Positions 4,810 through 59,590 of a stretch of DNA of 64,000 bases are shown here, piece by piece; position 1 is the first letter of the stretch; every line of letters starts with the position of its first letter. The position numbers and the translations under genes were made by a program. The notes below the pieces were generated by a model, which worked only from the letters and a program-made list of their open reading frames with translations, searched no databases and was not told the DNA's origin. The DNA comes from Minisyncoccota bacterium (GTDB taxonomy: Bacteria; Patescibacteriota; Minisyncoccia; Phycocordibacterales; JABAAK01), in the NCBI GenBank assembly GCA_963668425.1, contig OY764332.1, forward strand, positions 105,241 through 169,240. The letters are read 5' to 3'.

Positions 4810-5367
4810 GTGAAACGGTTTGTTGTATTTTTTTTATTTTGCGTTGCTAGTTGTGTGTTGTTGCTGTATGGGTGTGGCAGTACGACACGCAGTGTCGGAG
4901 GTGGCTTATTGTTCAGCAACACACGTCGCTCAATTACGGCCATCGTTGTACATCACACTGCTGGCACGGCGAGCAATGATATACAGCAGGTTGCATCAGA
5001 GATTTCCCGGTTGCATAAACGGAAGTTTCGTAAGATGCGTAAGAGTGTTGGGTTGCATGTTGCTTACCACTACCTGATTACGCCAAATGGAAAGGTGTGG
5101 AAAGTGCGCGATCCGGATGATGTCGGCTATCACGCTGGCAACTGGAGTATCAATAAGCGATCTGTTGCTGTTTGCGTGGTTGGTGATTTTTCAAAGTATC
5201 ACCCGACCCGTGCGCAGGTACGATCTCTTGACACGCTGGTCAAAAAGATGCAGAGAGAGCGACAGATCAAGAATGTAATTCCACATTCTTATTGCAGAGC
5301 AACGCTCTGTTGTGGCGAATACCTGAAGCGAGAAGTTCGTAATCTCTCGTGGGGGAGATATTTTTAA
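4810..5367 (+). CDS. N-acetylmuramoyl-L-alanine amidase (Amidase_2/PGRP family)
   Basis: GTG start preceded by AGGAGGTG. Signal peptide present. AIVVHHTAG...GYHAGNWSINKRSVAVCVVGDF is typical of the Amidase_2 zinc-amidase domain. Terminator at 5393-5428. Confidence 0.7.
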   Translation: MKRFVVFFLFCVASCVLLLYGCGSTTRSVGGGLLFSNTRRSITAIVVHHTAGTASNDIQQVASEISRLHKRKFRKMRKSVGLHVAYHYLITPNGKVWKVRDPDDVGYHAGNWSINKRSVAVCVVGDFSKYHPTRAQVRSLDTLVKKMQRERQIKNVIPHSYCRATLCCGEYLKREVRNLSWGRYF

Positions 5368-40944: not shown

Positions 40945-42171
40945 TCAATGATTTTTGTAAGCATCATAGTAACGTTGCATATCGTTTGTATTAACATTTT
41001 CTAATCCAGCCGCCCATCCCACTCTCTTTACTATATCAAAAAGTGATTCAGTATAATTCTTTTTAAGATTCTGATACATGATTGTCTCTGTAAGATTAAT
41101 GGAGTCATCAACTGAGCCATTATTAAAAGGTTCCTCGGTCTTTAAACTTAAGTTTGTTTCATTAGGGATGTTTCCAAATGGAACATTTTCAATATTGTCC
41201 AGTGATACCTTTAATTCAAGAAAGCCCCAGTACCCAATCTCTGCATAAAACTCTATGGCTGACGCGAGGAATAGATCAAGGCGAGATAATAAGTGCCCAA
41301 GATGAAAAACATCATGCCCGCCTTCTGTGTCTTTTTTAGAACGAATTTTTGTTTTGTGATAGTAAAAACCATATTGATTCAGTTCATCGTAGAGCAATCC
41401 AAGAATAGAGTGCTGAAAAAGCCGACAAAACCCATGTTGCACTGGTGAAAATATACAGTCGGAATTGTTGCGTGGGAGTGGAAACTGGACGACGCCCCAT
41501 CTACTAACCTGCATCTTTGTTAATATATTATTAGGGAGTTCCTGGTAGTCAGCCAGTATGTCAAATGGATACAGCGGGACAATACTGAAAGAGGTATCTA
41601 TACACCTTGGGTCTTGTTTGAACCTTTTACATAACACAACAGATCTTTCCTTTGCGGATTGATAAAAAGATTCTTTTAATTCAGTGGATTTTTTGCGCTT
41701 TTCAGTAAGCCAAAGTATCCTGTCAACATTTGCCAACTCTTCTGGCTCGTTGCTTGTATCAGTCCTGATATACACCTTTGTATTGTCTTTGATTGCGTGC
41801 GGTGTTGTATCGCTTTGCGGTACCCTGATCACAATCAAAGCATTCTCTTCCTTTTCATCTGAACAAATTTGCACTTCAGGGAAAATCGGAGGGGTGATTC
41901 TTCCAAGCACAATATTATTAATTCGCTCCCGTAGACCCTTTTTATAAGCAATACCCTGTACAGGCAATTCTGGTGTACTATCTTTGTCCTCAACACCAAT
42001 TATAATAACCCCTCCCCATGTATTAGCCATAGCAGCCATGGTTTTTGGCAAACTTGCATTATTGATTTCTCGTTTGTAATCAAGATGTATTGATTCTCGG
42101 TGTTTTTCTTCGCAGAAATCAATCACATCCTGATAGGTGATTTCTTCAATTTTTTTGGTGTATAGCAACAT
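40945..42171 (-). CDS. AlbA_2 (Schlafen-like divergent AAA) domain protein
   Basis: N-terminal YQDVIDFCEEKHRESIHLDYKREI...MANTWGGVIIIGVEDK resembles PF04326. C-terminal 270 aa unknown. Element B lies 55 nt upstream. Confidence 0.55.
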   Translation of the reverse strand: MLLYTKKIEEITYQDVIDFCEEKHRESIHLDYKREINNASLPKTMAAMANTWGGVIIIGVEDKDSTPELPVQGIAYKKGLRERINNIVLGRITPPIFPEVQICSDEKEENALIVIRVPQSDTTPHAIKDNTKVYIRTDTSNEPEELANVDRILWLTEKRKKSTELKESFYQSAKERSVVLCKRFKQDPRCIDTSFSIVPLYPFDILADYQELPNNILTKMQVSRWGVVQFPLPRNNSDCIFSPVQHGFCRLFQHSILGLLYDELNQYGFYYHKTKIRSKKDTEGGHDVFHLGHLLSRLDLFLASAIEFYAEIGYWGFLELKVSLDNIENVPFGNIPNETNLSLKTEEPFNNGSVDDSINLTETIMYQNLKKNYTESLFDIVKRVGWAAGLENVNTNDMQRYYDAYKNH

Positions 42172-42225
42172 ACTTTACTGTACCCTAATTTGACCTTTTT
42201 TATCAAGGGCAAGGTTTGCCCCATG

Positions 42226-42263
42226 CAAAACGGTTAAAAGGGTGTCTATAGCAATCGCGCCAC
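42226..42263. repeat. 38-bp conserved element B, copy 2, upstream of the AlbA_2 gene
   Basis: Identical to 38531-38568. Followed by an ATCTCAACCAATGACAACC motif that recurs at 43731. Confidence 0.8.
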
Positions 42264-42407
42264 TTACGATTAGATTCTTGGTTGAAATACAGCAATTATC
42301 TTGCCACACCATTTACGACCTGGCACCATCTCAACCAATGACAACCTTTCTTTGTAAAAGAGATTTTTGTTTAGTGCATGGATTTAATAATCTAGTGCAA
42401 CAGTAAA

Positions 42408-43190
42408 TTACTTATTTCGAATTATGTTCCACAAGCATTCTCTATCTTCGGCATTTAATACTTCAGAAAGGTGATCAAATTCAAGTACTATAGATGCGAA
42501 ATACCTTTCTATCTCTTTTAAATCTTTTGACACTTCTTCCTCCTTGGAGAAAGTGTGGTTTGGGTGAATGTACCTACTACAATTTTGATAAAGCGCTGAA
42601 AAAACATATCGTTCTTTTTTAGTGTCCTCAGTTTCAAAAGCTTGTATTGCTTGTTCATAAATGCTTTTTTTTGCAATTGATTTTAACAAAGGATTGTCAT
42701 TGATTTCTTTCTCGTGCTCTTGTATTTTTGCATTAGCTTCTGACTCCCCTTCTTTGATTTTTTTCTCAGTTTCTGCAATATCTTTAAGATCCTGTTCGGT
42801 TGTTTTAGGATTTTCTTTCATCTCTTTCAGAGATTTTTTTCTTGCTTTCCAATGGCGTAACCCTTCATTGCAAAATTTTAATTCAAAAGCCCTAACTACC
42901 CTCTCCTGCTCTTCCATAGTTTTGTACTCTGAAACATGTTTCTTGATTAGAAGTATTTTTATAAGTACTTCCAGTAAAACCCTGAGCAATACTGCATTTG
43001 TTTTTGCATATCTATTATTATTTTTTGTATTATTTTCTGCTAATGTTATTATTTCTACAGCATACTCAAACAACTCACATATCTTATCAAGCACTGCCTG
43101 TGATTGTATTAGGGCAACCTTTACTTTTGAAGGTTTGCTGATAATGCCGTCTCCGATATTTATTAACTTATTTATTGTTTTATCTGACAT
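42408..43190 (-). CDS. hypothetical protein
   Basis: 260 aa from MSDKTINKL. Charged, helical, no motif. Confidence 0.45.
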   Translation of the reverse strand: MSDKTINKLINIGDGIISKPSKVKVALIQSQAVLDKICELFEYAVEIITLAENNTKNNNRYAKTNAVLLRVLLEVLIKILLIKKHVSEYKTMEEQERVVRAFELKFCNEGLRHWKARKKSLKEMKENPKTTEQDLKDIAETEKKIKEGESEANAKIQEHEKEINDNPLLKSIAKKSIYEQAIQAFETEDTKKERYVFSALYQNCSRYIHPNHTFSKEEEVSKDLKEIERYFASIVLEFDHLSEVLNAEDRECLWNIIRNK

Positions 43191-43305
43191 TTTGTGTACG
43201 CATAGTGTAGTATATTTTTGTGTTTCAGGCAAAAGAAATTTTGTTCAATCTTGGTATTTTCTAAATGTTCGGAGGTTGGATTGTGAAGTATAATCTAAAC
43301 ATACC

Positions 43306-43641
43306 ATGAAACAAGAGAAGATACAATGTGTTCTAAAAGCTGTGTTGCGTTGGTTGTTTTGCTGGATACCGCTTGCATTTTTGATAGGTGTAATGTCATT
43401 GCTCCTGCTCTATGTTTTCGGTTTCTATTATGATAGTGATGTTTCCGGTTTCTATGATAGTGATGTCGTACCATTCACGCTGCCTGCAGTGCCCTTAATG
43501 GTATTGGTGGTGAATATCCTCTTTAGATTGTGGGAATATGCTTTTGATAAATCAGTTCGTTTTGCCGCTATTTTATCTTGCACAATCCCCTTTGTGTTGT
43601 TTCTATCTCTGCTTTTTTTGTCTGTTTTGTTTGGGTGGTAG
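43306..43641 (+). CDS. small membrane protein (full-length copy carrying the right direct repeat)
   Basis: 111 aa, TM helix, DSDV repeat, then LFRLWEYAFDKSVRFAAILSCTIP shared with 36246..36446. Confidence 0.5.
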   Translation: MKQEKIQCVLKAVLRWLFCWIPLAFLIGVMSLLLLYVFGFYYDSDVSGFYDSDVVPFTLPAVPLMVLVVNILFRLWEYAFDKSVRFAAILSCTIPFVLFLSLLFLSVLFGW

Positions 43642-44071
43642 TACTTAATAACGACACTGTATGAATAAAAATTTCTAGATGTCACTATATCCGTGCTGTG
43701 AACCTCTAACTACACACCAAGTGCTGATACTATCTCAACCAACGACAACCATCCTTTATATTTTCAATCAGGAGTGAGTCAGTAAAAAATCTGTTGGAAG
43801 TTGCTTATAGGTGTAATTTCGTGGATATGGCGATGGGCAAATGTTAAAAATGCTCTTATAGCATCGAATTTCATACATATAAGGGTGGTTTTTGTAATAA
43901 TCAGACAAAAAATACTCTTATATCTCTAAAAATCAGACCTATAAGGATTTAACCCTTATTTCATAAGGCGAAACGGCTATAGAACTACAAAAACCCTATA
44001 TCTAAAGAGGATTTTATGTAGTGAAAGTATATTATAGTAGCCATCTTTTTATTGAGGAATTATATACTTAA

Positions 44072-44569
44072 TTACCCCAGCAGTCCGTTATTGACCTCTC
44101 TTTGAAACTCTTGTATGGCATACACACCAATCAAGGCACGATCAGGACTGACCTGATCCTTCAACCACTCCACTGCCTTTTTTTTATATCCACCTCCATC
44201 AAGTAGTATTATTGTTGGTACGTCTGCTTTAATAATGTTGTGCAGTAAAAAAGGATACTTCTCATCCACCGATCCTGATGACTGTTGCCATTTGCATTCT
44301 ATGACTAATCCATCATCAAACAACTCCTTATTGAAAACTATAAAATCACACTTCCTTGGAGATTCATATATTGTAGTTCCGATAGGTACTTGTTTTGAAT
44401 ACTGTTTTCCACCAATCAAACTGATGTTTTTATACAACTGATTCTTGTGATCCCGGAACTCTGTATACCCTTTGCCTATCAAAACACTTTCAATAAGCAT
44501 CTCTAAACTTTCTCCAGTTTTGTTTGCCTTTGTTCCGCCTGTATCAGTAGTTTTTGATGATGAGTTCAT
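44072..44569 (-). CDS. putative type II restriction endonuclease (PD-(D/E)xK fold)
   Basis: CDFIVFNKELFDDGLVIECKWQ gives a D-x13-E-C-K motif. Overlaps the 3' end of the Dam-family methyltransferase gene. Confidence 0.5.
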   Translation of the reverse strand: MNSSSKTTDTGGTKANKTGESLEMLIESVLIGKGYTEFRDHKNQLYKNISLIGGKQYSKQVPIGTTIYESPRKCDFIVFNKELFDDGLVIECKWQQSSGSVDEKYPFLLHNIIKADVPTIILLDGGGYKKKAVEWLKDQVSPDRALIGVYAIQEFQREVNNGLLG

Positions 44570-45425
44570 TTTCTTTTCCTCGTTGATGTGCTTTACAGGA
44601 CACCGATCTGCTCGCCTGTATTACCTCTATAGTATACTTGCTGTATAAAAAGCGTATGAGTGGTGTATCGCTATTTGAGAGCAGAAAATATGATCCAACT
44701 TTGTTTATTTCATTACAAAAATCAGCAAGTTTTTCATGCTCCTCCTTACCGAAACCTGCACCGTTGTACTGACTGTATGTTGTGTGGTACGGGGGATCAA
44801 GATAGTAAAAGGTGTTCTTTTTTGGTTTCAATTGCGTAAAATCTTTTTGTTCTATGACGGTGTCTTTTAAGGACGCAGAACAAGCACGCAGATTATCCTC
44901 ATCAAGTATTGACGGATTTTCATAAGACCCTATAGGAACATTGAAACCGCCTGACTTGTTTACTCTGTACAGACCATTGAAACAAGTTTTGTTAAGGTAT
45001 ATGAATATAGCCGCAATTTTTGCACGATCTGTTTCTGTGTTCAATCTTGCTCTCACTCTGCCGTAGTATTCTTTGTTGTGATTTTTCTTGTGCCGTTTTA
45101 GGTGCCGTACAACATCATCAACAGTATCACGAACTGCACTGTAAGTTGCTATCAGCGTGAAGTTTATATCGGACAGGTGGGCATTCTCTGGCTGTATTTC
45201 AAAAAAAAGTGCACCGCCACCAACAAATGGTTCACAATAATATCCGGTAAAGCCGACCTTTGCTTGTTCAGTCAGATGTGGCAATGCTGATCGCTTTCCT
45301 CCTACCCACTTCACGAATGGTTTAGCAGATATGTGTAAATCACTTACATCCTGACCCGCAATGGTTTGTAAAACATCATTAAATGATCCATCAATCGGAT
45401 CGTGGTGTTTTCTTTCTCGTATCAT
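44544..45425 (-). CDS. DNA adenine methyltransferase (Dam/D12 class N6-MTase)
   Basis: FVKWVGGKRSALPHL, EPFVGGGA, CFNGLYRVNKSGGFNVPIG and YYLDPPY (DPPY motif) are collinear with E. coli Dam. Confidence 0.85.
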   Translation of the reverse strand: MIRERKHHDPIDGSFNDVLQTIAGQDVSDLHISAKPFVKWVGGKRSALPHLTEQAKVGFTGYYCEPFVGGGALFFEIQPENAHLSDINFTLIATYSAVRDTVDDVVRHLKRHKKNHNKEYYGRVRARLNTETDRAKIAAIFIYLNKTCFNGLYRVNKSGGFNVPIGSYENPSILDEDNLRACSASLKDTVIEQKDFTQLKPKKNTFYYLDPPYHTTYSQYNGAGFGKEEHEKLADFCNEINKVGSYFLLSNSDTPLIRFLYSKYTIEVIQASRSVSCKAHQRGKENELIIKNY

Positions 45426-45550
45426 ATTTATTTTGTAATTACCTTGTAAGAGGTGGTAGGACTTTCAGTTATGTTTACCAGTATACCGTTGAATACATCA
45501 GTAATCTTTTCAGCCCTGCTGGTGTGTGATATACTACTAATTGAAACTAA

Positions 45551-45748
45551 TTGACACTTTTTAATAGGTTCACTGTTAATACCGCTATGAAAAAGAACAG
45601 GAAGATGACAATCAAAGAGTATGCAGAAAAAAGGAATATTGATTTTGAAAGATTATTTTCTGGTGAGAATCCAAACATATCTATGCAATCCTATCTAAAA
45701 AAAGATAGGACTTCCAAGTGTTGCAAAAGTATTTTGTATATTGAATAA
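45551..45748 (+). CDS. small ORF (65 aa), possible HTH regulator
   Basis: Divergent from the R-M pair. Ends at the left inverted-repeat terminator module. Confidence 0.3.
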   Translation: MTLFNRFTVNTAMKKNRKMTIKEYAEKRNIDFERLFSGENPNISMQSYLKKDRTSKCCKSILYIE

Positions 45749-45754
45749 CGAGAA

Positions 45755-45838
45755 AGCGTAATGCCGGTTAAGTGTCGTATCACAGCACCGAAACATACGT
45801 TGCTTAGAAAAAGGTCCGTCAGGGACTTTTTTTGTTTT
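45755..45838. repeat. inverted-repeat element, copy 1 (contains bidirectional terminator-like hairpin)
   Basis: AAGCGTAATGCCGGTTAAGTGTCGTATCACAGCACCGAAACATACGTTGCTTAGAAAAAGGTCCGTCAGGGACTTTTTTTG. Reverse complement of 52524-52606 is about 93% identical. Similarity extends about 25 bp further. Confidence 0.85.
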
Positions 45839-46030
45839 TTTACAGCATCAACGCTCTGGCAATTAGGTTCTCGACTGAAGTACAACAATTGTGCATATTA
45901 GAGGGCGGAGTGGCTCTCAAGAGGTGTGTAAAATAAGGTGATAATTTGGTTTTCAACACTTCTTGCGGAAAAAATATATTTTTGATATACTGTTAGTGAC
46001 TTGAGGTTATCTCAGGTGGCAAAACCCCTA

Positions 46031-46780
46031 TCAAAGGGGCTTTTTGTTTCTCCTTTTTCTGCCCTCTGGCAATAACCTGCAACTCCCCTCGTCGTCACGA
46101 TGGATAAGTTTTTGCTTTTCCATAGAAACCAACTTTTTTTTAAACCTGGTTTTATTTTGTTCTTTGTTCATGCCAAATAACTCTTCAAGTGTCTTATCTC
46201 CATCTTCAAGAGATAGTAATATTTCTTTTTCTGAGGTCAATCTTGGGTCAGTAATGACCTTCTTGTTGCCAACTTTGAGTATGTCAGGAAACATAATATC
46301 TGCAGATTCATCAATCTTTTGTTGTATTTGTTTGGTATCCATATCGCTGTATAGTCGTATTAGCTCAGCATATATCCATTTGGTTGCATAGAAGGTGAAA
46401 TTAGTGTCAATACGCTCCAGATTAACCCCGCCGAGGTGTGCGGCATCTCTCTCATTACGAAAACCGAGCAAGATTTTAACCAATGGAGCAACTTTTGTTC
46501 TTAGTGATACATCAGCACCTGAATTGTTTGCTAGATTATTAATAATCTTTCCAGTATCAGAAATCTGTTTGCCTATTGGGGTGAATTTTTTTGTTAAAAT
46601 ATATTCAAAAATTCGCAGTATTACCTCACAGAATTTTCCTACAGATGTTTCATGATGCTCAAAGTCACTGCTTTGATACCTACCTATCACTTTTTTGTAT
46701 TCAGCGGTCAGCGTCTTTTCTAATTCCTTTGGAATGCCCGCAAAAAGAGGGTGTTTATTTTTCTGTTTTTTTCTTGCCAT
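46031..46780 (-). CDS. DUF4145/HEPN-like protein (Rx4-6H-like motif GFRNERDAAH)
   Basis: LVKILLGFRNERDAAHLGGVNL parallels LKALDIVRITANEGGSHCGEIDL of the DUF4145 protein at 31060. Last gene of a three-gene overlapping operon. Confidence 0.5.
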   Translation of the reverse strand: MARKKQKNKHPLFAGIPKELEKTLTAEYKKVIGRYQSSDFEHHETSVGKFCEVILRIFEYILTKKFTPIGKQISDTGKIINNLANNSGADVSLRTKVAPLVKILLGFRNERDAAHLGGVNLERIDTNFTFYATKWIYAELIRLYSDMDTKQIQQKIDESADIMFPDILKVGNKKVITDPRLTSEKEILLSLEDGDKTLEELFGMNKEQNKTRFKKKLVSMEKQKLIHRDDEGSCRLLPEGRKRRNKKPL

Positions 46781-47243
46781 GTTTTTTTCTCTTACTCTTA
46801 TGGTATTTTTTAGAAATGTTTTTCAGTGAATCTTCATTGGGGAGTTGTGATACTATCTCTCTCGTGGTTGCATTTATCTTATATTTCCCATGCCCAGCAC
46901 CACTTATATACCCATATGTCCCTATGGAGTGCTGAATGTCTTTACCAATATTCCTCCCATTCATTAATGAAACCTCCGTCTCTAAAAAAGATTCTAATGC
47001 TTTTTTTTCAATGACTTCATTACTACTGCCATTGGTTAAATAATATACAGCAAGAGCGACGATAAAATAGTAGTTTTTTGTTTCTTTTTCTTGAAAAAAA
47101 GTGTCCCATTCGTTTGGGATAAGTTTTAACTCACCTTTGGTTGGGTTATTTGTTGTTCTTTCTGCAGATACTGATTGATTCTTTAACAAATCTCTAATCT
47201 CCTCCAAGAGTTTTATTATTACTTTTTCGTTTTCTGTGTTCAT
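46755..47243 (-). CDS. hypothetical protein (middle gene of three-gene operon)
   Basis: 162 aa. Overlaps the downstream gene by 26 nt and the upstream gene by 4 nt. Confidence 0.45.
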   Translation of the reverse strand: MNTENEKVIIKLLEEIRDLLKNQSVSAERTTNNPTKGELKLIPNEWDTFFQEKETKNYYFIVALAVYYLTNGSSNEVIEKKALESFLETEVSLMNGRNIGKDIQHSIGTYGYISGAGHGKYKINATTREIVSQLPNEDSLKNISKKYHKSKRKKHGKKKTEK

Positions 47244-47671
47244 TTTTCTTCTTCTTTTCTTAACTCTGCGAGCGCCTCAAGCCCTGTGTTGGTCAGTGAG
47301 TACATCCTATTCCTATGCTTGCCAGAGATAACGTCAACAAACCCTTTTTTGTGCAACCGAGCAATCACATCACTTGGGTTTCCAGGCGTTTTTTCTTTTA
47401 CGGTTTTGTAGGACTCTTGAATCGCTTTCAGGTCAAACCCATCCTTACTGTTCTCATTATCCAGTATTGACATGATCGCAAGGCACTTTTCTACGTCTGA
47501 TTCCAAGCTATATTGCAAGAAGATCTCTCGCTTGCTTAGGTTTTTTTTAATAGATGATTTCACCTCGCTGGAAGACATCTGGCTCTCTATTGCTGCAACC
47601 CTTTTTACAAGTGCATCAAAATCTTCTTTTGTTATTGTCTTTGTCGTCATAATATTTATAGCATACAGCAC
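47240..47671 (-). CDS. winged-helix domain protein (first gene of three-gene operon)
   Basis: C-terminal NPSDVIARLHKKGFVDVISGKHRNRMYSLTNTGLEAL is wHTH-like. Confidence 0.45.
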   Translation of the reverse strand: MLYAINIMTTKTITKEDFDALVKRVAAIESQMSSSEVKSSIKKNLSKREIFLQYSLESDVEKCLAIMSILDNENSKDGFDLKAIQESYKTVKEKTPGNPSDVIARLHKKGFVDVISGKHRNRMYSLTNTGLEALAELRKEEEK

Positions 47672-47958
47672 TGTTAAGAATCTGTCAATGCATCATAATA
47701 ATGTTTCTATTTTTGTTTTTTGTTGTATATGCTTTTCAGTAGATAAAAAGTATAATATTCTTATTTTACCATGGTCTATCTATATTTATTTTCAATATTT
47801 TTACAAAAATCAAAATAAAAAAATAAAATCGTTTTTTGAGTACCTTAAAAAGTATAAAAATATGTTTATTTATTAGGTTAAAATTTATCTTTTGTAACTG
47901 CTTGCTATAAAAAATAATTTTTTTGACTTCTTATTAATTTTTATGTATACTTACTCAT

Positions 47959-48546
47959 ATGATGACATTTAAAGAAAAAATTTACTTACTATTGTTAGAT
48001 AAGTGCAATTTGATGACTATATCTATGGCAGTTATTGCTGTTATATCTGTTACTATAATTTGCTCACCATCTGTTTTGAAATATGCTATTGGCCATACCT
48101 TATTGCAATATGTTTTTCCAGCATCCGCTGCAATATCTACAGCATGTCTTGCTTTTTTTACTTATTTAAATTACAGAATAAAGCTTAATGGTGTAGTATT
48201 GTTCATTTGCAGAGAATCTGGTTTGTATGACCACCTTAAGGCGAAAAGAGCGATAGATGGAAAGTCAGAGCAGTACTTATATATTCAAGTCAATAATGCA
48301 TGCAGGAATGCCATCACTCTTTCCATTTTCAAAAGTGATAATGGCTTTGAAATGCCACTTGCAAGTAAAAAAGAAAGTGATGCGTTTAGTTTTAATTGGA
48401 TAATAGAAGCAGGCAAACGTCATCATAATTTATTTTCAATAGATACAAAACAATTTGAGACACTCAAAAAGAGTAAGTATCTATATGTCATAGACTTTTC
48501 AGGCAAGCCGTATAAGTTATCTCTGCCCGACCAACCTGCAAAATAG
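47959..48546 (+). CDS. hypothetical membrane protein
   Basis: 195 aa with N-terminal TM helices. Preceded by a 260-bp region of over 80% AT. Confidence 0.45.
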   Translation: MMTFKEKIYLLLLDKCNLMTISMAVIAVISVTIICSPSVLKYAIGHTLLQYVFPASAAISTACLAFFTYLNYRIKLNGVVLFICRESGLYDHLKAKRAIDGKSEQYLYIQVNNACRNAITLSIFKSDNGFEMPLASKKESDAFSFNWIIEAGKRHHNLFSIDTKQFETLKKSKYLYVIDFSGKPYKLSLPDQPAK

Positions 48547-48888
48547 CACTGACATGAATGAGTGAAATGCCCCTGGCGAAGGTGGATATGCTCCAAGTTA
48601 ATGCCTTCATGGACCAAAACCTCTATATTGCAATATACTCTTGTCGTAAACCTCACTATACACCAAGCGACAATAATGTGCCAATAAATATCGTCAGCTT
48701 CCCGACTGCGGTGTGGCAATTATTTTACCTAATAAATATATTAGGTTAAAATCTGCCACAACTTCTTGAGGTAAGGTATGCTTTTTGCCTTTTCTTCGAG
48801 TGTTTCTTTTTTTATTTTCTGCTCAAGCCATTTTTTTGTGATCTCATCGCACCCCTACTACCTTTTTATCACATGGCAACATATTTAT

Positions 48889-49755
48889 CTAAAACCCCTC
48901 TTTTTGCAGATCTTTTAGTATTTCTTTTGCCTTTTTGCTGAGTTTTTTGGGGTATGCGATGTGGCAGAATACAATCAATCGGTCGTTGCCTGCTGGTCGT
49001 GGTATTCCTTTTCCTTGAAATACAATATGGGTTCCCTCTCTGCTCATTTCTGGCACTGTTACTGCGAGTGTGTTGCCCCGTATGTCCTGTATTTCTTTTG
49101 TGGTGCCGAGCACTGCCTCACTCGGTGTTAGCTGTAGTGGGCATACCACATCGCCACCTTGGCGTTCAAACACTGGGTGTCTTTGCACTCGTATCTGTAT
49201 GAATAGGTCTCCTGGTGCTGATTGCCCGTCTTTTGATATCTCTCCTTTTCCTGCGTACTGCAGTCGTGCTCCCGGCTCTATTCCTGCCGGTATCTGTACC
49301 TCAATTGTCTCGGATGCTTTTCTTCGGTATGGTATGGTGAATTGTTTTGTTGTGCCGAATATTGACTCTTCAAATGAGATAGTTAGGTCAATCTGTATAT
49401 TCGCTCCACGGTTCATTGCTTCACGAAACATTGCTTTACGGTTCATTATTTCACGAAACATCTGGTTAATGGCATCGTCAAAGCCACCCGCACTACCGCC
49501 GAAATCAAACCCCTCAAAGCCAGAGGTGTCAGAGCCACCTGCACCTGCGCTTCGTGGGTCCACTCCGGCGTCATACTGTGCCCTTTTTTGTTGATTGCTC
49601 AATATTTGATATGCCTCATTCACTTCTTTGAATTTATTCACGTCACCTCCTTTTTTATCAGGATGATACTGATGTGCTAATGTACGAAACGCCTTTTGAA
49701 TATCCTCTTGGGATGCTCCTCTGTCAACACCGAGTATCTTGTAGTAATCTTTCAT
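48889..49755 (-). CDS. dnaJ: DnaJ-family co-chaperone (J domain; lacks Cys-rich zinc finger)
   Basis: MKDYYKILGV...HQYHPDK J domain, G/F-rich region, C-terminal substrate-binding domains, no CxxCxGxG repeats. Internal 8-aa duplication AMFREAMN. Confidence 0.8.
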   Translation of the reverse strand: MKDYYKILGVDRGASQEDIQKAFRTLAHQYHPDKKGGDVNKFKEVNEAYQILSNQQKRAQYDAGVDPRSAGAGGSDTSGFEGFDFGGSAGGFDDAINQMFREIMNRKAMFREAMNRGANIQIDLTISFEESIFGTTKQFTIPYRRKASETIEVQIPAGIEPGARLQYAGKGEISKDGQSAPGDLFIQIRVQRHPVFERQGGDVVCPLQLTPSEAVLGTTKEIQDIRGNTLAVTVPEMSREGTHIVFQGKGIPRPAGNDRLIVFCHIAYPKKLSKKAKEILKDLQKEGF

Positions 49756-49773
49756 ATTTGTAGTATAGAGGGG

Positions 49774-51681
49774 TTATTCCTCTTTTTGTTCTCCTGCCTT
49801 GTCGTCTTCTTTGTCAGTGTCATTGCTACTGCTTTCGGAGGTGTCCTTGTCACTGGGGGTTTCGGTGCCGTCAGTGTCTGCTGTTTGTCCTTCGGTGCTT
49901 GCCTGTCGGTGCTTTGCAAATACTCCTGATGCTTCTGTGATTGCCTGTTGGATTGTTTCTTTGTCATCTTTTTCTTTTTCGGCGCGTAGTTTTGTTATTG
50001 CATCTTCTACTTCTTTCTTTGCGTCAGCAGACAAATTGTCCTGTTTTGCAATTTTCTCTCCTTCGTACACTGCCTGCTCTGCGATATTTTGCACTTCAAT
50101 TAACTCTTTTTTCTTTATATCTTCATCGGCGTGTGCTTCGGCACTTTGTTTCATCTGCTCTATATCTTCATCTGAGAGTCCTGATCGCGCTTCTATTTTT
50201 ATGGACTGTGTTTTGTTTGTTTTTTTGTCTTTTGCGGTAACATTTAGGATGCCATCTGTATCTAAATCAAACTCAACTTCAATTTGTGGCATACCTCGTG
50301 GCGCATTGTCAATTCCGTCCAGGATAAACCGTCCCAAACTCTTGTTATCTGTTGCCATAGACCGTTCTCCCTGCACAATGTGTATCTCAACTGAGGGTTG
50401 GTTATCAGCTGCCGTGGAAAATACTTGTGAGGCACTGGTCGGCAATGTGGTGTTTTTCTCAATCACCTTTGTTGCGACACCGCCGAGTGTCTCAATGCCA
50501 AGTGACAGTGGTGTAACATCCAGCAGTAATACATCTCGCACATCACCGCTTAAAATACCTCCTTGAATAGCCGCGCCTAACGCCACCACCTCATCAGGAT
50601 TAATAGATCGATTTGGCTGCTTGCCGAAGAGGTCTTCAACTGCTTTGATTACTGCTGGCATTCGTGTTTGCCCTCCGACTAAAATGACTTCGTTCACATC
50701 GGAAACTGAAGCAGACGCGTCAGAGAGTACCCCTTTTGTAATCTCTAGTGTTTTGTCAATATACCGCTTTGCCAACTCTTCTAATTTTGCACGTGTTAGT
50801 GTTATAAGTAGGTGTTGTGGTCCGGCAGAAGTGGACGTGATAAACGGAATGTTAATCTCTGTTTCTTGTGACTGTGATAATTCTTTCTTTGCCCGCTCAA
50901 CCTCTTCATCAAGCCGCTGTACCGCTAATGAGTCCTCAGATAGGTCAACACCGCTCTCTTTTTTATATTCGGCAACCACATAGTTTAATACCTCACGGTC
51001 AATATCCCGTCCGCCGAGGTGTGAATCCCCACCTGTTGATTTCACCTCAACTATATCATCTCCGACTTGCAAGATAGACACATCAAAGGTACCGCCACCA
51101 AAATCAAACACGGCGATTTTTTCATTTTTCTTTTTGTCAAACCCGTATGCGAGTGCGGCAGCGGTTGGCTCGTTAATAATTCGCTTTACCTCAAGACCGG
51201 CGATTTTTCCTGCGTCTTTGGTTGCCTTTCGCTGTGCATCATTAAAATATGCTGGAGTGGTAATCACTGCCTCGGTTACACTTCCGCCCAGTCGCGCTTC
51301 AGCGTCTTCTTTTAGTTTTCGTAGTACCATGGCTGATACTTCTTCTGGGCTATACTCTTTATCTCCAAGCACTACTGACACTCCTCCGGTTGATGACTTT
51401 TTTACTGAAAATGATGCATTTTTGACATCTTCCTGCACTGCCTTGTCATCAAATGCGTGTCCGATAAATCGCTTAATTCCGTATACGGTATTGGCTGGAT
51501 TCGTAACCGCTTGTCGTCGTGCGGCAACACCCACCAATCGTTCTTTTGTTTTTGCGATAGCAACAACAGAGGGGGTCGTTCTTGCCCCTTCGGCATTTTC
51601 TAAAATCTCAGGACCCGATGACTCCATCACTGCAACCGCAGAGTTCGTTGTCCCTAAATCTATCCCTATAATCTTGCTCAT
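49774..51681 (-). CDS. dnaK: molecular chaperone DnaK (Hsp70)
   Basis: [41 protein letters not shown]. Start placed at ATG 51681. TATTATACAT -10-like directly upstream. Confidence 0.95.
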
Positions 51682-51865
51682 ATATGTATTATGTATAATA
51701 GTATTTTTATATAAAAACAGCAATTCCCCATCTATTTTTCCACGGGCAATCGCATATTGTTTAGTATAACAATAAATTTGTCTTTTCTTCAACTTTTTAT
51801 TGAGAATTTAATAATCTGATTTGAATATTTTATAGGTTTTTTGTATACTGCGCTGTAAAAACAAC

Positions 51866-52513
51866 ATGACGGATATTTTTATAGATGAGAGTGGAAACTT
51901 AGGGAAAGGTGAGCAGTTTTTTATCATAGCAGCAGTTCAGTTTGAATCAGATGATGATTATAAGAAGTGGAAAAATCTTGCAAAAAGAGTTATAAAAAAT
52001 AAAAATAATTTAAGAGAAATAAAATCCTCTGCAATGGATTATGACTCAAAGAAAGAAATTTTACAGCAGATCAAGAAGAGGAATATACGATTTACTGTTT
52101 GGCTTGGTATTATTGACACAAATCATAAGCGCTATAAAGAGAGATTTATTTTGAAGAATAACTCTAAAGAACTTGCCTTCAATTACACTTTGAAAAAGAT
52201 GTTTGAAAGATGTATTGCAAAAAATATTCAAAAGAGGCATATAGTTGTATGTGTTGACCAGCGAAACACAAAAACTGGTTCAAGATATTCATTGAAGGAT
52301 TACCTAAATGTGGAGTTTATTCATAACCAATCAATTACATTACAGAGTGTTTCTATTGAGTACTGCGATTCCAAAAGGAGTTATGGTGTTCAGTTATCAG
52401 ATTTGGTTGCAAATATCACTTATACTAAGTTTGAATACAATAAATCAAACCATCTTTTTGAGACATATATAAAACCTAAAATATTGGGAGAGTGCAGTTA
52501 TCCAGAATGTTGA
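51866..52513 (+). CDS. DUF3800 family protein
   Basis: N-terminal MTDIFIDESGNLG matches the DUF3800 hallmark (h-Y/F-h-D-E-S-G). Confidence 0.6.
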   Translation: MTDIFIDESGNLGKGEQFFIIAAVQFESDDDYKKWKNLAKRVIKNKNNLREIKSSAMDYDSKKEILQQIKKRNIRFTVWLGIIDTNHKRYKERFILKNNSKELAFNYTLKKMFERCIAKNIQKRHIVVCVDQRNTKTGSRYSLKDYLNVEFIHNQSITLQSVSIEYCDSKRSYGVQLSDLVANITYTKFEYNKSNHLFETYIKPKILGECSYPEC

Positions 52514-52523
52514 TGTTGTAAAA

Positions 52524-52606
52524 AACGAAAAAGATCCCTGACGGACCTTTCTCTAAGCAACTTATGTTTCGGTGCCGTGATACGACACTTAACCGGCATT
52601 ACGCTT
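52524..52606. repeat. inverted-repeat element, copy 2
   Basis: Reverse complement matches 45755-45838 with 5-6 mismatches. Confidence 0.85.
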
Positions 52607-52855
52607 GGGTCTCCACATAAGGTTTATGCCTACTACTACTATACCTTTTTATCTTTATATTTTCAACGGTATGCGAGATATGTGGAAAATATTGTACCCT
52701 CTCTTGAAGTATTAAAAAGATAGGTTGCCTTTGTCCATGCGTTTGCTATATGCTCACCATTATGCTGTGATATGTGCTTGTTGAAAAGTGTATACATTTT
52801 TTACTACTTCCTTTATACTGGTTGTGTATATAAAGTTTATTGGTGGATTACCATT

Positions 52856-53056
52856 ATGAAACATTTTCTAAATAAAATTAAAGCTATATTTACTGATACT
52901 CAGACAAATGCAAATAAGACAGGTGTTGCTGATGTTACTAGTAATCAAAGTGCGGGCAAGTTGAGTCCAGAAGAGAGGGAGCGGAGAATTAAGCACGCCG
53001 CTGAGTATACTGTTAAAGAATATGGGAGTGTCATTGAACGACTCGCAAAAGAGTAG
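52856..53056 (+). CDS. putative antitoxin (partner of Doc/Fic toxin)
   Basis: 66-aa ORF. Its stop TAG is followed after 1 nt by the ATG of the Doc-family gene. Confidence 0.45.
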   Translation: MKHFLNKIKAIFTDTQTNANKTGVADVTSNQSAGKLSPEERERRIKHAAEYTVKEYGSVIERLAKE

Positions 53057-53057
53057 C

Positions 53058-53489
53058 ATGAATTTCTTTACTAAGGGAGATCTGTTGCTTTTGTATGAGG
53101 AAGAATATAATACGCAGTATGTAACTGGCGGGCTTTTTGGTGCGTTTCTACCTACAGAAAAAGAACAGTGGGCAGAGCAAATGTTTTCAGCGCAGCAGAC
53201 CGTGCAGACAAGAGTGAGTATGGTTGGCGGTACTGTGCATGAGGCAGCGGCTCGCCTTATGTTCTGTATTATCAAAGGGCACAAACTTGCTGACGGCAAT
53301 AAACGCTCGTCCATTCTTTGTATGATTGGGTTCTATAGATTAAACAACTATAAGTTTAAATCTAATAAAGACGATCTCTACAATAAAACAAAAGAAGTGG
53401 CAGCATTGGACTCTCAGACAATAGATGATGAAAAAGAGATTGTTAACCTCACCAAATTTCTTGAAGATAACACTGAGTCCTTTGAATAA
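53058..53489 (+). CDS. Fic/Doc family toxin (Doc-type)
   Basis: HKLADGNKRSS matches the Doc/Fic motif HxFx(D/N)GNKR. Size about 143 aa as for Doc. Confidence 0.7.
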   Translation: MNFFTKGDLLLLYEEEYNTQYVTGGLFGAFLPTEKEQWAEQMFSAQQTVQTRVSMVGGTVHEAAARLMFCIIKGHKLADGNKRSSILCMIGFYRLNNYKFKSNKDDLYNKTKEVAALDSQTIDDEKEIVNLTKFLEDNTESFE

Positions 53490-53509
53490 CCGATATGTGT
53501 ACCTGCCTG

Positions 53510-54136
53510 CTATTGTGAAATAGTTGCGCTTGCGGGCTGGACAGTGTCTACTGTAGGGACAGTGACTATTGTGTTTGCCTGGATTTTTGCTCTTACATTT
53601 GAGACGGTACTCGCTACATCAGCATTAGTCAAGGTATAGCCGGTAAAGTGCTTCTCCTTATTTGCACCGATTGTAAGGTCGTGCGCGATGTCGTCGTCTA
53701 TGATAAAGCCGTCTTTATCAAGCCACTCTATTCTGGCGGTAAATGACTTGCTGCTATCAGCGTCATTTTTTACTGTCAAAATCCATGAGAATTTGTAGTA
53801 GGCATCATTCTTTTCTGTAATTTTTGTGGCGATATTTACTATTTGTATACTTGGCTCTTGTGTCTGTGGTGTTACCTCTTCTGACGTGTTCCCTGCCGAC
53901 TGTGTTTTTGCTATCCATGCGCGGTTTCGCTCGGCAACAATGTTGTGTATGTTGCTTAAGATGTACTGGATGCCATTTGAACTGGTCAGTAGCCCTTGTA
54001 GCCATGATTCACACTGTGTCCTCGTCTGACTCTGCACACCTCCAACCAGCAAGCCAAAAACTGCCACAATAGAAAGCACAAAACCAATACACACACCAAG
54101 TAGTATATTCTTATGTAACATCTTCATTACCGGCAC
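53510..54136 (-). CDS. hypothetical membrane-anchored protein
   Basis: 208 aa, N-terminal TM. Confidence 0.45.
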   Translation of the reverse strand: MPVMKMLHKNILLGVCIGFVLSIVAVFGLLVGGVQSQTRTQCESWLQGLLTSSNGIQYILSNIHNIVAERNRAWIAKTQSAGNTSEEVTPQTQEPSIQIVNIATKITEKNDAYYKFSWILTVKNDADSSKSFTARIEWLDKDGFIIDDDIAHDLTIGANKEKHFTGYTLTNADVASTVSNVRAKIQANTIVTVPTVDTVQPASATISQ

Positions 54137-55485: not shown

Positions 55486-55908
55486 TTATTTCCTTTTGTG
55501 AATTTCATGATTGAGATCTATAAGCACTATATTGAATACCCCTTTCCATTGGTATCCGAAGATGCGTATCTCTTGTGTTACTGAAAGGTATGATGGATAA
55601 TACTCTTCTCCATTTGAATAATCTGCTTCTTTAGCACATGCATTTTTTATAACTTCTTTAACCTTTTTGTCTTTTATTTCTTTTATCGGATTTGCTTGAT
55701 TTCCACTATAGAGATATTCTGATTTTTGCACTTCTTTCCACTTTCGTCTTTCAAGATTTTTTAATGCTTCAACCACTTCTGCTATTTTTTTAAAATTTTC
55801 TTTCTCCAGTTTTACACTCTTCAATTTTGGTGGGTTGTAATTGTAGTTAATCCTTTCAAATGAGTATTTAAAATCTTCTTCTGTAAATTTAGGATCAATT
55901 ACTGGCAT
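55486..55908 (-). CDS. hypothetical protein, candidate toxin partner of the Panacea-domain protein
   Basis: 141 aa from internal ATG. Overlaps or abuts the upstream Panacea-domain gene. Confidence 0.4.
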   Translation of the reverse strand: MPVIDPKFTEEDFKYSFERINYNYNPPKLKSVKLEKENFKKIAEVVEALKNLERRKWKEVQKSEYLYSGNQANPIKEIKDKKVKEVIKNACAKEADYSNGEEYYPSYLSVTQEIRIFGYQWKGVFNIVLIDLNHEIHKRK

Positions 55909-56410
55909 ACTCTTCAGATAATATCGGTTTGTAGTACTTCTGTATTGCTTTTTGTGGAATGACAATATCCTGCTCTCCGTTTTCTACCCTTTTTTTATAA
56001 TGTTTCCATGGCTGTTTGTGTGAGTGAGTGATTTCCATAAGTCGTACCGCTGAGTAACCACCGAAGGTCTCTAATACTTCGCTGACTATCTTTTTATCTT
56101 CATTTGGCACATTGATATCATGCTTCTTTACTTCTGCCTTGGGCAATGGATTGTTTTTATATTCCTTATACTCTTCATATACCTCCTTTACCACCGGCCC
56201 GTATTTCCATGCACATATATCTTCTTCAAACATTGGTCTATCCAACTTAGCTAATGAAAATGCTTGGCAGAAATATAGGAGTTTCTGCAATTTTAGATTT
56301 GATACACCCTCTGAGACCCCTTCATCAATTTCTTTATCTTTGCTATAGAATGCAGTGATGATGTATTTAGCCACATCTGTAGCAGATAGGGTGTTTGTGT
56401 TTGTTTCCAT
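55895..56410 (-). CDS. Panacea domain (DUF4065, SocA/GepA-like) antitoxin-type protein
   Basis: KLQKLLYFCQAFSLAKLDRPMFEEDICAWKYGPVVKEVYEEYKEY matches the Panacea consensus (KL.KLLYFa....G.PlF...f.AW..GPV...vY). Confidence 0.65.
   Translation of the reverse strand: METNTNTLSATDVAKYIITAFYSKDKEIDEGVSEGVSNLKLQKLLYFCQAFSLAKLDRPMFEEDICAWKYGPVVKEVYEEYKEYKNNPLPKAEVKKHDINVPNEDKKIVSEVLETFGGYSAVRLMEITHSHKQPWKHYKKRVENGEQDIVIPQKAIQKYYKPILSEEYASN

Positions 56411-58084: not shown

Positions 58085-59590
<1,506 letters not shown>

What the first reader, a model, noticed from the sequence alone, without database searches (positions are those of the whole stretch)
45755..52606. 85-110-bp inverted-repeat pair bracketing a 6.8-kb segment that includes dnaK/dnaJ and an accessory operon
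The segment at 45755-45838 and the reverse complement of 52524-52606 are about 93% identical. Each contains an A-run/hairpin/T-run terminator module. Similarity extends into the 3' end of the DUF3800 gene at the right copy and into a matching pseudo-3'-end at the left copy. The bracketed segment holds the wHTH/unknown/DUF4145 operon, a membrane protein gene, dnaJ, dnaK and the DUF3800 gene. This could be the footprint of an inverted duplication or recombination that captured accessory genes next to core chaperone genes. It could also be an invertible segment, or one member of a dispersed MITE-like terminator repeat family.
Basis: seen in the sequence. Interest (0 to 1): 0.7.

Follow-up and report, generated by a model that had tools for sequence, protein, structure and literature searches.

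The report
Two copies of DUF3800-partner small RNA
The inverted repeat around dnaK/dnaJ is one intact and one 5'-truncated copy of a structured small-RNA gene that always sits next to a DUF3800 (RNase H2-like) gene; the RNA class is not in Rfam and its function is unknown, and there is no sign of inversion or a dispersed repeat.

Summary
The repeat is real: 87 nt at 93%, or about 107 nt at about 91% with one indel. It occurs twice in the window and in a second, independent assembly.

It is not a recombination scar, an invertible-segment boundary or a MITE. The right arm is the 3' three-quarters of a ~115-nt small-RNA gene (52517-52632, minus strand). That gene has a near-consensus promoter and its own terminator, and it lies convergent with the DUF3800 gene. 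Twenty distinct homologues share a three-way-junction fold with strong covariation. Every informative copy lies next to a DUF3800 gene, in unrelated genomic contexts.

The left arm lacks the promoter and the 5' strands of three helices. It scores half as well and does not fold like the family, so I read it as a relic. In a sister strain the left side carries a second, very different DUF3800 gene with its own tiny cognate RNA. That RNA survives as an orphan in the window at about 45997-46048. In the window the second DUF3800 gene has been replaced by a mobile three-gene cassette.

dnaK-dnaJ order and orientation match a relative that lacks these modules, so nothing points to inversion. No Rfam family reaches its threshold, so this is a further structural class of DUF3800-associated RNA. 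Its mechanism is inferred only.

The parts
52517..52632 (-). Intact small-RNA gene (right arm plus about 26 nt beyond the repeat at the RNA 5' end). Three-way junction P0-P1-(P2,P3), conserved GUAAG-type bulge, UAAG and CCGA junctions, intrinsic terminator at 52553-52527.
   Evidence: Covariance model R1 scores 91 bits over 52517-52637. The single-sequence minimum-energy fold equals the family consensus, z = -3.4. Covariation is shown.
52638..52666 (-). Promoter of the right RNA gene, TTGAAA-17-TATAGT, about 6-8 nt upstream of the first paired base.
   Evidence: It is the top-ranked promoter-like site. Near-consensus -35/-10 boxes, as I read the sequences, sit at the same position in the homologues printed.
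51866..52513 (+). DUF3800 gene (215 aa), convergent with the RNA gene. RNase H2/H3-like fold with invariant D7, E8, D131, Q176 and D179.
45752..45847 (+). Left arm: 5'-truncated copy of the RNA. It begins inside the P2 loop and lacks the promoter, the P0, P1 and P2 5' strands and the 5' bulge. It keeps P3, the junction motifs and the terminator (45807-45833). It lies directly after the stop codon of a 52-aa ORF (45590-45748).
   Evidence: Alignment with the right copy shows a sharp identity boundary at AAGCG. R1 scores 46 bits against 91, with non-standard pairs in the aligned 5' helices. The minimum-energy fold is not the family fold, z = -1.6. The sister-strain left copy has the invariant CCGA mutated to CCAA.
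45848..45859 (-). Pseudo-3'-end: three sense codons plus a stop (P-E-R-stop) matching the end of the DUF3800 gene (P-E-C-stop). The frame is closed by TAA five codons upstream.
   Evidence: Read from the sequence. No DUF3800 remnant is found by profile search of the window ORFs.
45963..46048 (+). Orphan second small RNA ('sRNA-B'): promoter TTGCGG-17-TATACT (45963-45991), invariant core TGACTTGAGGTTATCTCAGGTGGCAA (45997-46022), terminator (46025-46048). It is the cognate RNA of a different, 281-aa type of DUF3800 gene, which is absent from the window.
   Evidence: Alignment A4 of the window, L001, L113 and L114 shows an invariant core and a terminator stem whose sequence differs between loci while still pairing. 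In L001, L113 and L114 it is convergent with a 281/307-aa DUF3800 gene.
46031..47925 (-). Mobile three-gene cassette (143-aa weak wHTH, 162 aa, 249 aa) with its promoter region. It replaces the 281-aa DUF3800 gene of the sister strain and is unrelated to the RNA.
   Evidence: The L001 to window homology break lies at 46060 and 48889. The cassette is conserved in L111 and L112 in other contexts, with homology only to window 46104-47925. There is no R1 hit beside it there.
47959..48546 (+).
48889..51792 (-). dnaJ (48889-49755) and dnaK (49774-51792; the Hsp70 domain starts at residue 41, so the likely start is 51681). These are the core genes between the two modules.
   Evidence: Pfam. Synteny with L031-L033.
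52772..53489 (+). 94-aa ORF (possible antitoxin, by position only) plus a Doc/Fic toxin gene. It lies in the same ~1.7-kb stretch as DUF3800 and the RNA that is absent from L031.
   Evidence: TIGR01550 Doc, E = 2.5e-12. Pfam Fic. L031 lacks this stretch.

Best explanation
The two arms are copies of a small structured RNA gene that is the genetic partner of a DUF3800 gene.

Shown. The right copy is a complete transcription unit of about 115 nt: promoter, three-way-junction RNA and intrinsic terminator. It is convergent with the 215-aa DUF3800 gene and shares a bidirectional terminator hairpin with it. The gene-plus-RNA pair recurs in Patescibacteria and other metagenome contigs in unrelated neighbourhoods, so it behaves as a mobile two-part module. 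The protein has an RNase H2/H3-like fold with its acidic motif residues intact. The left copy holds only the 3' ~75% of the RNA plus the last codons of a 215-type gene.

Inferred. The left copy is a relic of a second module, or of a partial duplication or conversion from the right one. It now mainly serves as the 3' end and terminator of a small upstream ORF. The region downstream of dnaJ is a cassette-exchange site: a sister strain carries a different DUF3800 gene there with its own tiny RNA, while the window carries an unrelated three-gene cassette and keeps that tiny RNA as an orphan.

Inferred mechanism, about 35% likely. The RNA acts in trans by binding the DUF3800 nuclease and holding it inactive or setting its specificity, in a toxin-antitoxin or abortive-infection logic. 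This would be analogous to an RNA antitoxin, or to the RT-ncRNA pair that accompanies DUF3800 effectors in type VII retrons.
For: Repeat and extent.

Full-length homologues with promoter and terminator lie next to DUF3800 homologues in L002, L003, L006, L007, L010 and L011, in different contexts.

A scan with the RNA core alone returned 17 metagenome loci. Fourteen are distinct family members, one is a duplicate and two are chance matches. Thirteen of the 14 have an adjacent DUF3800 ORF, and the 14th lies at a contig end.

RNAalifold independently finds P0, P1, P2, P3 and the terminator; 14 of 27 pairs show compensatory changes. On my four-helix structure, 95.5% of cells are paired against 82.5% in shuffles. 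The covariation score is 0.424 against 0.171, reached by 0 of 500 shuffles, and it collapses to 0.03-0.12 when partners are slid. P3 was fixed by the search pattern, but the divergent L009 copy changes P1 and P3 in a compensatory way.

Model scores: right copy 91 bits, left copy 46 bits.

The sister strain L001 has both arms and a 281-aa DUF3800 gene on the left. That gene shares only the IFIDESG motif with the 215-aa one.

sRNA-B is conserved beside 281-type genes.

Fold. Invariant D, E, D, Q..D residues.

Defence or toxin-antitoxin neighbours: Dam methylase plus PD-(D/E)XK nuclease, Schlafen/AlbA_2, Doc and SocA/Panacea in the window; methylases, Vsr, AAA_15/21, Mrr and Panacea in the relatives' loci.

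Literature: DUF3800 genes associate with at least 11 unrelated RNA motifs of unknown function, on either side and in either orientation (PMC5737381). DUF3800 is the effector of type VII retrons (PMC7736814).
Against: There are no expression data, so the promoter, transcript ends and the trans-acting role are predictions.

The toxin-antitoxin-like mechanism has no direct support. DUF3800 matches no PADLOC model, and DUF3800 toxicity has not been shown in any paper I could read.

The left copy may not be dead. The covariance model can align its upstream sequence to P1, with 6 of 7 pairs by my reading. An A-to-C change shared by both strains strengthens alternative stems.

Only 64 kb of a roughly 0.70-Mb genome was visible, so further copies elsewhere are not excluded.

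Many of the 20 sequences are related, which inflates the shuffle-based statistics.
Confidence: 0.8

Rival explanations
1. The repeat is a functional pair of recombination substrates. The 6.8-kb dnaK/dnaJ segment inverts between the arms, either as a site-specific invertible element or by RecA-mediated flip-flop.
For: A 107-bp inverted repeat at about 91% identity is long enough for homologous recombination.
Against: No recombinase family matched any ORF tested between 40.9 and 56.4 kb. The orientation is the same in the window and in the independent assembly L001. The order and orientation of X-dnaK-dnaJ match L031, which lacks both arms. GC skew in the segment matches the flanks. The arms are explained by an RNA gene with its own conservation pattern.
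Confidence: 0.04
2. The unit is a member of a dispersed MITE- or REP-like terminator repeat family with no link to any gene.
For: It contains a bidirectional terminator and lies in intergenic DNA.
Against: There are only two copies in 64 kb and one in each relative locus that carries a 215-type DUF3800 gene. A scan of 241 million metagenome records found 17 core matches, 15 of them real, and all informative ones lie next to DUF3800. Conservation lies in base-paired helices upstream of the terminator, with compensatory changes. I saw no terminal inverted repeats or target-site duplications.
Confidence: 0.03
3. Both arms are functional RNA genes. The left copy is a shortened variant still used by the DUF3800 protein, for example as a second dose or a decoy, rather than a relic.
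For: The left copy keeps P3, UUAAG, CCGA (in the window) and the terminator. An A-to-C substitution shared with L001 creates an alternative closing stem. A -10-like TATATT lies upstream. R1 still scores 46 bits.
Against: It has no good promoter and lacks the 5' strands of three covarying helices. The left copies of the two strains differ at about 8 of 106 positions (my count). That is only slightly fewer changes than in the 88%-identical left block as a whole, so selection is not evident. The right copies are identical. In L001 the invariant CCGA is CCAA.
Confidence: 0.12
4. The RNA is a guide or specificity RNA for an Argonaute-like nuclease rather than an inhibitor.
Against: The RNA has no long variable single-stranded segment. 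Variation is mainly compensatory within helices, and the junctions are invariant. The 11 known DUF3800 motifs are structurally unrelated, which fits protein-specific partners better than a common guide scaffold.
Confidence: 0.08

Closest known systems
DUF3800-I RNA motif (Rfam RF02969; Weinberg et al. 2017, PMC5737381)
   Same: A structured RNA of about 100-115 nt next to DUF3800 genes, in either orientation, ending in an intrinsic terminator. It shares a local hairpin-UAAG-hairpin-CCG arrangement enclosed by a P1 stem. It is the only DUF3800 family named by cmscan for both arms.
   Different: Scores are 21.9 and 19.4 bits against a gathering score of 44.2. Eleven loci that carry other family members give no DUF3800-I hit even at E<=10. 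This RNA has no separate 5' hairpin and no 4-bp P2 enclosing both hairpins. Instead it has a closing P0 helix with a GUAAG-type bulge and a plain three-way junction.
DUF3800-II to -XI RNA motifs (Weinberg et al. 2017)
   Same: The same genetic logic: different structured RNAs, each tied to DUF3800 genes. UAA trinucleotides are common, and several motifs have terminators.
   Different: No Rfam 15 family reaches its gathering score on the window or on 19 related loci. I could not read the 2017 supplementary alignments and could not confirm that all eleven motifs are in Rfam, so identity with one of them is not formally excluded.
Type VII retrons (RT + ncRNA + DUF3800 effector; Mestre et al. 2020, PMC7736814)
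   Same: A DUF3800 RNase H2-like protein genetically coupled to a structured non-coding RNA within a defence-type module.
   Different: No reverse transcriptase is found among the tested ORFs of the window or the called genes of the relatives' loci. The RNA has no msr/msd-like inverted repeats.
Type III toxin-antitoxin systems (ToxIN-like)
   Same: This is the proposed working analogy only: a small RNA with its own promoter neutralising a neighbouring nuclease, in a mobile module found in defence islands.
   Different: Type III antitoxins, from general knowledge, are tandem repeats processed by an endoribonuclease toxin of a different fold. Here the RNA is a single three-way junction and the protein is RNase H2-like.
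MITEs / REP elements and invertible DNA segments
   Same: A short inverted repeat in intergenic DNA that contains a hairpin.
   Different: Two copies, no terminal inverted repeats or target-site duplications seen, no recombinase, one orientation in all assemblies.

Membership tests
DUF3800-I RNA (RF02969) | Covariance-model score at or above Rfam's gathering score (44.2 bits) | tested here: not met
   21.9 bits (left arm) and 19.4 bits (right copy). There was no hit at gathering in 19 related loci, and none at E<=10 in 11 loci that carry other family members.
DUF3800-I RNA (RF02969) | Located next to a DUF3800 gene, on either side and in either orientation | tested here: met
DUF3800-I RNA (RF02969) | Followed by a Rho-independent terminator | tested here: met
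DUF3800-I RNA (RF02969) | Consensus architecture: 5' hairpin, P1, then a 4-bp P2 enclosing two hairpins separated by UAA | tested here: inconclusive
   P1, a hairpin-UAAG-hairpin arrangement and CCG are present. The 5' hairpin and the enclosing P2 are absent or mismatched in the cmscan alignments and in the family consensus.
DUF3800-associated structured RNAs (general class, Weinberg 2017) | Conserved secondary structure supported by covariation | tested here: met
   14 of 27 RNAalifold pairs are compensatory. The covariation score is 0.424 against 0.171 in shuffles and at most 0.12 when partners are slid.
DUF3800-associated structured RNAs (general class, Weinberg 2017) | Consistent genomic association with DUF3800 (PF12686) genes across lineages | tested here: met
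   All loci found through the protein carry the RNA. Of 14 distinct loci found through the RNA, 13 carry a DUF3800 ORF, and the 14th is cut by a contig end.
Site-specific invertible segment | A recombinase (Hin/Gin-type or tyrosine) encoded in or beside the segment | tested here: not met
   Pfam scans of 20 ORFs between 40.9 and 56.4 kb show none.
Site-specific invertible segment | Both orientations present in a population | not testable with these tools
   Only assemblies are available. The window, L001 and L031 all show one orientation.
MITE / dispersed repeat | Many copies per genome, terminal inverted repeats and target-site duplications | tested here: not met
   Two copies in 64 kb, one in each relative locus that carries a 215-type DUF3800 gene, and 17 matches in the whole metagenome collection. 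The rest of the 0.70-Mb genome was not available.
Type III toxin-antitoxin | Antitoxin made of tandem RNA repeats processed by the toxin | tested here: not met
   The RNA is a single-copy three-way junction with no tandem repeats. Processing cannot be tested.
DUF3800 protein (PF12686) | Pfam score above the cut-off, an N-terminal DE motif and a C-terminal QxxD motif | tested here: met
   64.7 bits against a cut-off of 21. D7, E8, Q176 and D179 are invariant in A5. The fold is RNase H2/H3-like.

The most novel reading that the evidence does not exclude
DUF3800 genes and their structurally unrelated partner RNAs form a broad class of RNA-protein toxin-antitoxin or abortive-infection modules, in which each RNA neutralises its own RNase H2-like nuclease. 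On this reading, the CPR locus shows cassette exchange beside dnaK/dnaJ that leaves behind orphan or truncated RNA 'antidotes': the left arm and sRNA-B. These could still protect the cell against incoming cognate nucleases, as an anti-addiction function. The three-way-junction RNA and sRNA-B would then be two undescribed RNA classes of that system.
Probability: 0.2. Interest if true: 0.8.

Novelty: new variant of a known kind. Interest (0 to 1): 0.5.

Why it matters
DUF3800-associated RNAs have been an open puzzle since 2017. Eleven unrelated structures are tied to one RNase H-like protein family, and none has a known function. DUF3800 domains also appear as retron effectors and as Cas12/Cas13 accessory proteins. 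This locus adds a well-supported three-way-junction class that is not captured by Rfam 15. It also adds a ~50-nt candidate class, in small-genome Patescibacteria. The compact RNA-plus-gene pairs (about 115 nt with 215 aa, and about 50 nt with 281 aa) would be convenient for testing binding, toxicity and defence. The sister-strain comparison also shows such modules being swapped next to essential chaperone genes. For the scan itself, the lesson is that a long-range inverted repeat ending in a terminator can be two copies of a small-RNA gene rather than a rearrangement signature.

Tried and rejected
1. Known RNA families. At gathering thresholds Rfam finds only 16S rRNA and a tRNA in the window, and only rRNA and tRNA in 19 related loci. 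Permissive scans gave the sub-threshold DUF3800-I hits plus obvious noise such as snoRNAs and SpF41.

2. Recent duplication of a whole gene-plus-RNA module. Rejected, because the sister strain's left DUF3800 gene (281 aa) shares only the IFIDESG motif with the 215-aa gene.

3. The three-gene cassette as a partner of the left RNA. Rejected. Cassette homologues in L111 and L112 have no such RNA, and homology stops at window 46104.

4. The DUF4145 label for the 249-aa protein. There is no Pfam, NCBIfam or PADLOC hit, and its homologues carry no Pfam annotation.

5. Phage origin. Neither RNA core occurs in IMG/VR contigs.

6. Remnant of a DUF3800 gene beside the left arm. No profile hit to the window ORFs, and nothing recognisable in the six-frame translation.

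7. Literature on function. Searches for DUF3800, DUF3800-I, drum and skipping-rope found no functional study. The 2017 supplementary text is not held.

8. The look-up of encoding contigs did not return the window's own 696,550-bp contig, so the rest of the genome could not be scanned.
Full report
**1. Observation**

The inverted repeat exists as described. The repeat finder gives arms 45754-45840 and 52520-52606, 87 nt and 93% complementary. With one indel the similarity runs on to 45859 / 52502 (pair I3; alignment). That is about 107 columns with 9 mismatches and one gap.

A 28-nt core occurs exactly twice in the window and never in 100 shuffles. Each arm contains an A-run/hairpin/T-run terminator.

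The overlap with the DUF3800 gene is small: the last three sense codons and the stop (P-E-C-stop). The left arm carries a matching P-E-R-stop in a frame that is closed five codons upstream.

Both arms are also present in an independent assembly from another sample (L001).

**2. What the right arm is**

Read on the minus strand, the right arm is preceded by a near-consensus promoter, TTGAAA-17-TATAGT (52666-52638). This is the best promoter-like site in the region. The arm ends in a strong intrinsic terminator (52553-52527).

The repeat covers only the 3' three-quarters of this unit. About 26 further nucleotides at the RNA 5' end (52607-52632) are conserved in relatives but absent from the left arm.

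The neighbouring gene 51866-52513 is a DUF3800 protein (PF12686, E = 2e-17).

**3. Relatives**

The protein has only nine homologues at E<=1e-5 among 5.8 billion sequences. All lie on small-genome contigs of 640-730 kb or in MAGs such as Candidatus Campbellbacteria.

In L002, L003, L006, L007 and L010 the homologue sits in a completely different neighbourhood. In each case it is followed by a convergent copy of the same promoter-RNA-terminator unit.

In the 27%-identical homologue of L011 the RNA lies immediately downstream on the same strand.

I then searched 241 million metagenome records with the RNA core alone and obtained 17 loci:
- Two are chance matches. They have partial model hits of 19-25 bits and no DUF3800 ORF.
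- One duplicates another.
- Of the 14 distinct members, 13 have a DUF3800 ORF directly adjacent, on the same strand and upstream of the RNA.
- The 14th is cut by the contig end.

The RNA and the gene therefore form a linked module that is found at different genomic sites.

**4. Structure**

On 20 distinct sequences (alignment A3), RNAalifold independently predicts these elements:
- a closing helix P0;
- a conserved GUAAG-type bulge;
- a 7-bp P1;
- a three-way junction with hairpins P2 and P3, separated by (U)AAG and followed by CCGA;
- a terminator.

Fourteen of 27 pairs show compensatory changes.

For my four-helix structure, 95.5% of cells pair, against 82.5% in shuffles. Eleven of 20 pairs change on both sides. 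The covariation score is 0.424 against 0.171, reached by 0 of 500 shuffles. Sliding the partners drops it to 0.03-0.12.

P3 is invariant, but only because the search pattern fixed it. The divergent L009 copy (33 bits) changes P1 and P3 in a compensatory way.

The single-sequence minimum-energy fold of the window's right copy reproduces the consensus, z = -3.4.

**5. The left arm**

It starts abruptly inside the P2 loop (AAGCG...). It lacks the promoter, the P0, P1 and P2 5' strands and the 5' bulge.

Model R1 gives it 46 bits against 91 for the right copy, with non-standard pairs in the aligned 5' helices. Its minimum-energy fold is a different, statistically unremarkable structure, z = -1.6.

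Between the window and L001 the left copies differ at about 8 of 106 positions (my count). One of these hits the family-invariant CCGA, which becomes CCAA. The surrounding left block is 88% identical. The right copies are identical, in a block that is 97.7% identical.

The left arm begins three bases after the stop codon of a 52-aa ORF (45590-45748), so its terminator probably now serves that ORF.

I therefore read it as a 5'-truncated relic. A residual function is not excluded: an A-to-C change shared by both strains strengthens alternative stems.

**6. What lies between the arms**

L001 is 97.7% identical to the window over 48889-53646 and 88% identical over 45063-46060. Between those blocks it has a 281-aa DUF3800 gene and a 99-aa gene, instead of the window's three-gene operon and 195-aa ORF.

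The 281-aa protein shares only the IFIDESG motif with the 215-aa one. So the left side was never a simple duplicate of the right module.

Homologues of the 281-aa type (L113, L114) are each convergent with a short transcription unit. It has a TTGNNN-17-TATACT promoter, an invariant core TGACTTGAGGYTATCTCAGGTGGCAA, and a terminator whose stem sequence differs between loci while still pairing.

The same unit sits at window 45963-46048, now orphaned.

The window's three-gene cassette (143, 162 and 249 aa) recurs in other genomes in other contexts. Its homology is limited to 46104-47925, and no R1 RNA lies beside it there. It has no Pfam, NCBIfam or PADLOC identity, so the DUF4145 label is not confirmed.

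**7. Synteny and inversion**

The closest genomes by DnaJ are a Candidatus Kaiserbacteria MAG (79%) and two Paceibacterota chromosomes (73% and 61%). The organism is therefore a Parcubacteria-group CPR bacterium.

Only dnaK-dnaJ are shared with the window. In L031, dnaK lies directly beside the homologue of window 53510-54136. So DUF3800, the RNA and the 94-aa ORF plus Doc toxin pair (52772-53489) lie in a stretch of about 1.7 kb that L031 lacks, which I read as an insertion in the window's lineage.

The order and orientation of X-dnaK-dnaJ are the same in L031, L001 and the window. GC skew in the segment has the same sign as the flanks. No recombinase family matched any tested ORF between 40.9 and 56.4 kb. 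R1 finds no real copy in the dnaJ loci of 12 relatives; the single weak hit (L060, 24 bits, 22% G+C) looks spurious.

Nothing supports an invertible segment or a dispersed repeat family.

**8. The protein and a likely mechanism**

The AlphaFold2 model (pLDDT 88) is closest to these structures:

D7, E8, D131, Q176 and D179 are invariant. These fit the published DE...QxxD signature.

The literature I could read states that DUF3800 genes associate with 11 unrelated RNA motifs of unknown function. It also describes DUF3800 as the effector of type VII retrons and as an accessory of some Cas12 and Cas13 loci. No mechanism is reported.

Several facts favour a trans-acting, protein-binding RNA:
- an independent strong promoter in all members whose upstream sequence I examined;
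- linkage that is indifferent to orientation;
- no variable single-stranded segment that could act as a guide;
- defence and toxin-antitoxin neighbourhoods.

The most likely role is to restrain or license the nuclease, in a toxin-antitoxin or abortive-infection logic. This is inference, and I put it at about one in three.

**9. Comparison and novelty**

The window-clade RNAs give sub-threshold DUF3800-I hits of 19-22 bits, against a gathering score of 44.2. Other members of the same family give none, and nothing reaches gathering.

The local hairpin-UAAG-hairpin-CCG arrangement is reminiscent of DUF3800-I, but the overall architecture differs. I therefore file it as a further structural class of DUF3800-associated RNA, not as a member of RF02969.

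One caveat applies. I could not inspect the 2017 supplementary alignments for motifs II-XI.

**Verdict**

The rearrangement and MITE interpretations are not supported. The finding is a moderately interesting new variant of a known but unexplained kind of system.

Noticed in passing
window 45963-46048 (+); L001 ~926-1015; L113 ~4945-5030 (-); L114 ~1395-1480 (-): A second tiny RNA unit ('sRNA-B'): TTGNNN-17-TATACT promoter, invariant 26-nt core TGACTTGAGGYTATCTCAGGTGGCAA, and a terminator whose stem sequence varies while still pairing. It is convergent with 281/307-aa DUF3800 genes in three loci. In the window it is an orphan. No Rfam hit.
   Followed up: partly
window 46031-47671 (-), homology block 46104-47925; L111 4107-5735; L112 4141-5774: A conserved, mobile three-gene cassette (about 140-aa weak PadR-like wHTH, about 165 aa, about 250 aa) with no Pfam, NCBIfam or PADLOC identity. 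In L112 it lies among Schlafen/AlbA_2, AAA_15, N6/N4 methylase and ResIII genes. It could be an uncharacterised defence system.
   Followed up: partly
window 46060 and 48889 versus L001 1023 and 2418: Cassette exchange immediately downstream of the dnaJ stop codon between two strains. Identity to L001 is 97.7% to the right of the swap but only 88% to the left, which suggests the left block came from a more distant donor.
   Followed up: partly
window 52772-53489 (+): A 94-aa ORF overlapping a 155-aa Doc/Fic toxin gene (TIGR01550, E = 2.5e-12), likely a Phd/Doc-type toxin-antitoxin pair. It lies in the same stretch as DUF3800 and the RNA that is absent from L031.
   Followed up: partly
window 40945-45425 and 55486-56410: Defence or toxin-antitoxin context on both sides: a Schlafen/AlbA_2 protein (40945-42171), a PD-(D/E)XK_11 nuclease plus Dam-type methylase pair (44072-45425) and a SocA/Panacea antitoxin-domain protein (55895-56410). 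The ORF 55486-55965 has only a sub-threshold J-domain hit.
   Followed up: no
L113 ~3860-3900 and ~5010-5050; window ~45938-45957: A conserved block (GGYGATRRTTGGKTTTCAAC on the sRNA-B strand) just upstream of the sRNA-B -35 box. In L113 it occurs twice, flanking the 307-aa DUF3800 gene, which itself follows a second 235-aa DUF3800 gene in tandem. It could be an operator or part of another RNA.
   Followed up: no
window 58129-59590 (-): The 16S rRNA gene reads GTGCCAGCAGGAGCGGTAATAC where the bacterial consensus has CAGCAGCCGCGG. That is a mismatch to the widely used 515F primer site.
   Followed up: no
window 45590-45748 (+): A small 52-aa ORF between the restriction-modification genes and the left RNA relic, conserved in L001, with no family hit. 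It may be a regulator of the restriction-modification system. The relic's terminator appears to serve as its 3' end.
   Followed up: no
A3 / loci L002-L010 versus L011-L030: Clade difference within the RNA family. The window clade has an extra mini-hairpin (GCR-UAA-YGC, covarying) inserted in the P2 loop and lies convergent with the gene. All other members lack the insert (L029 has a shorter, different one) and lie downstream on the same strand, with the promoter inside the end of the gene.
   Followed up: partly
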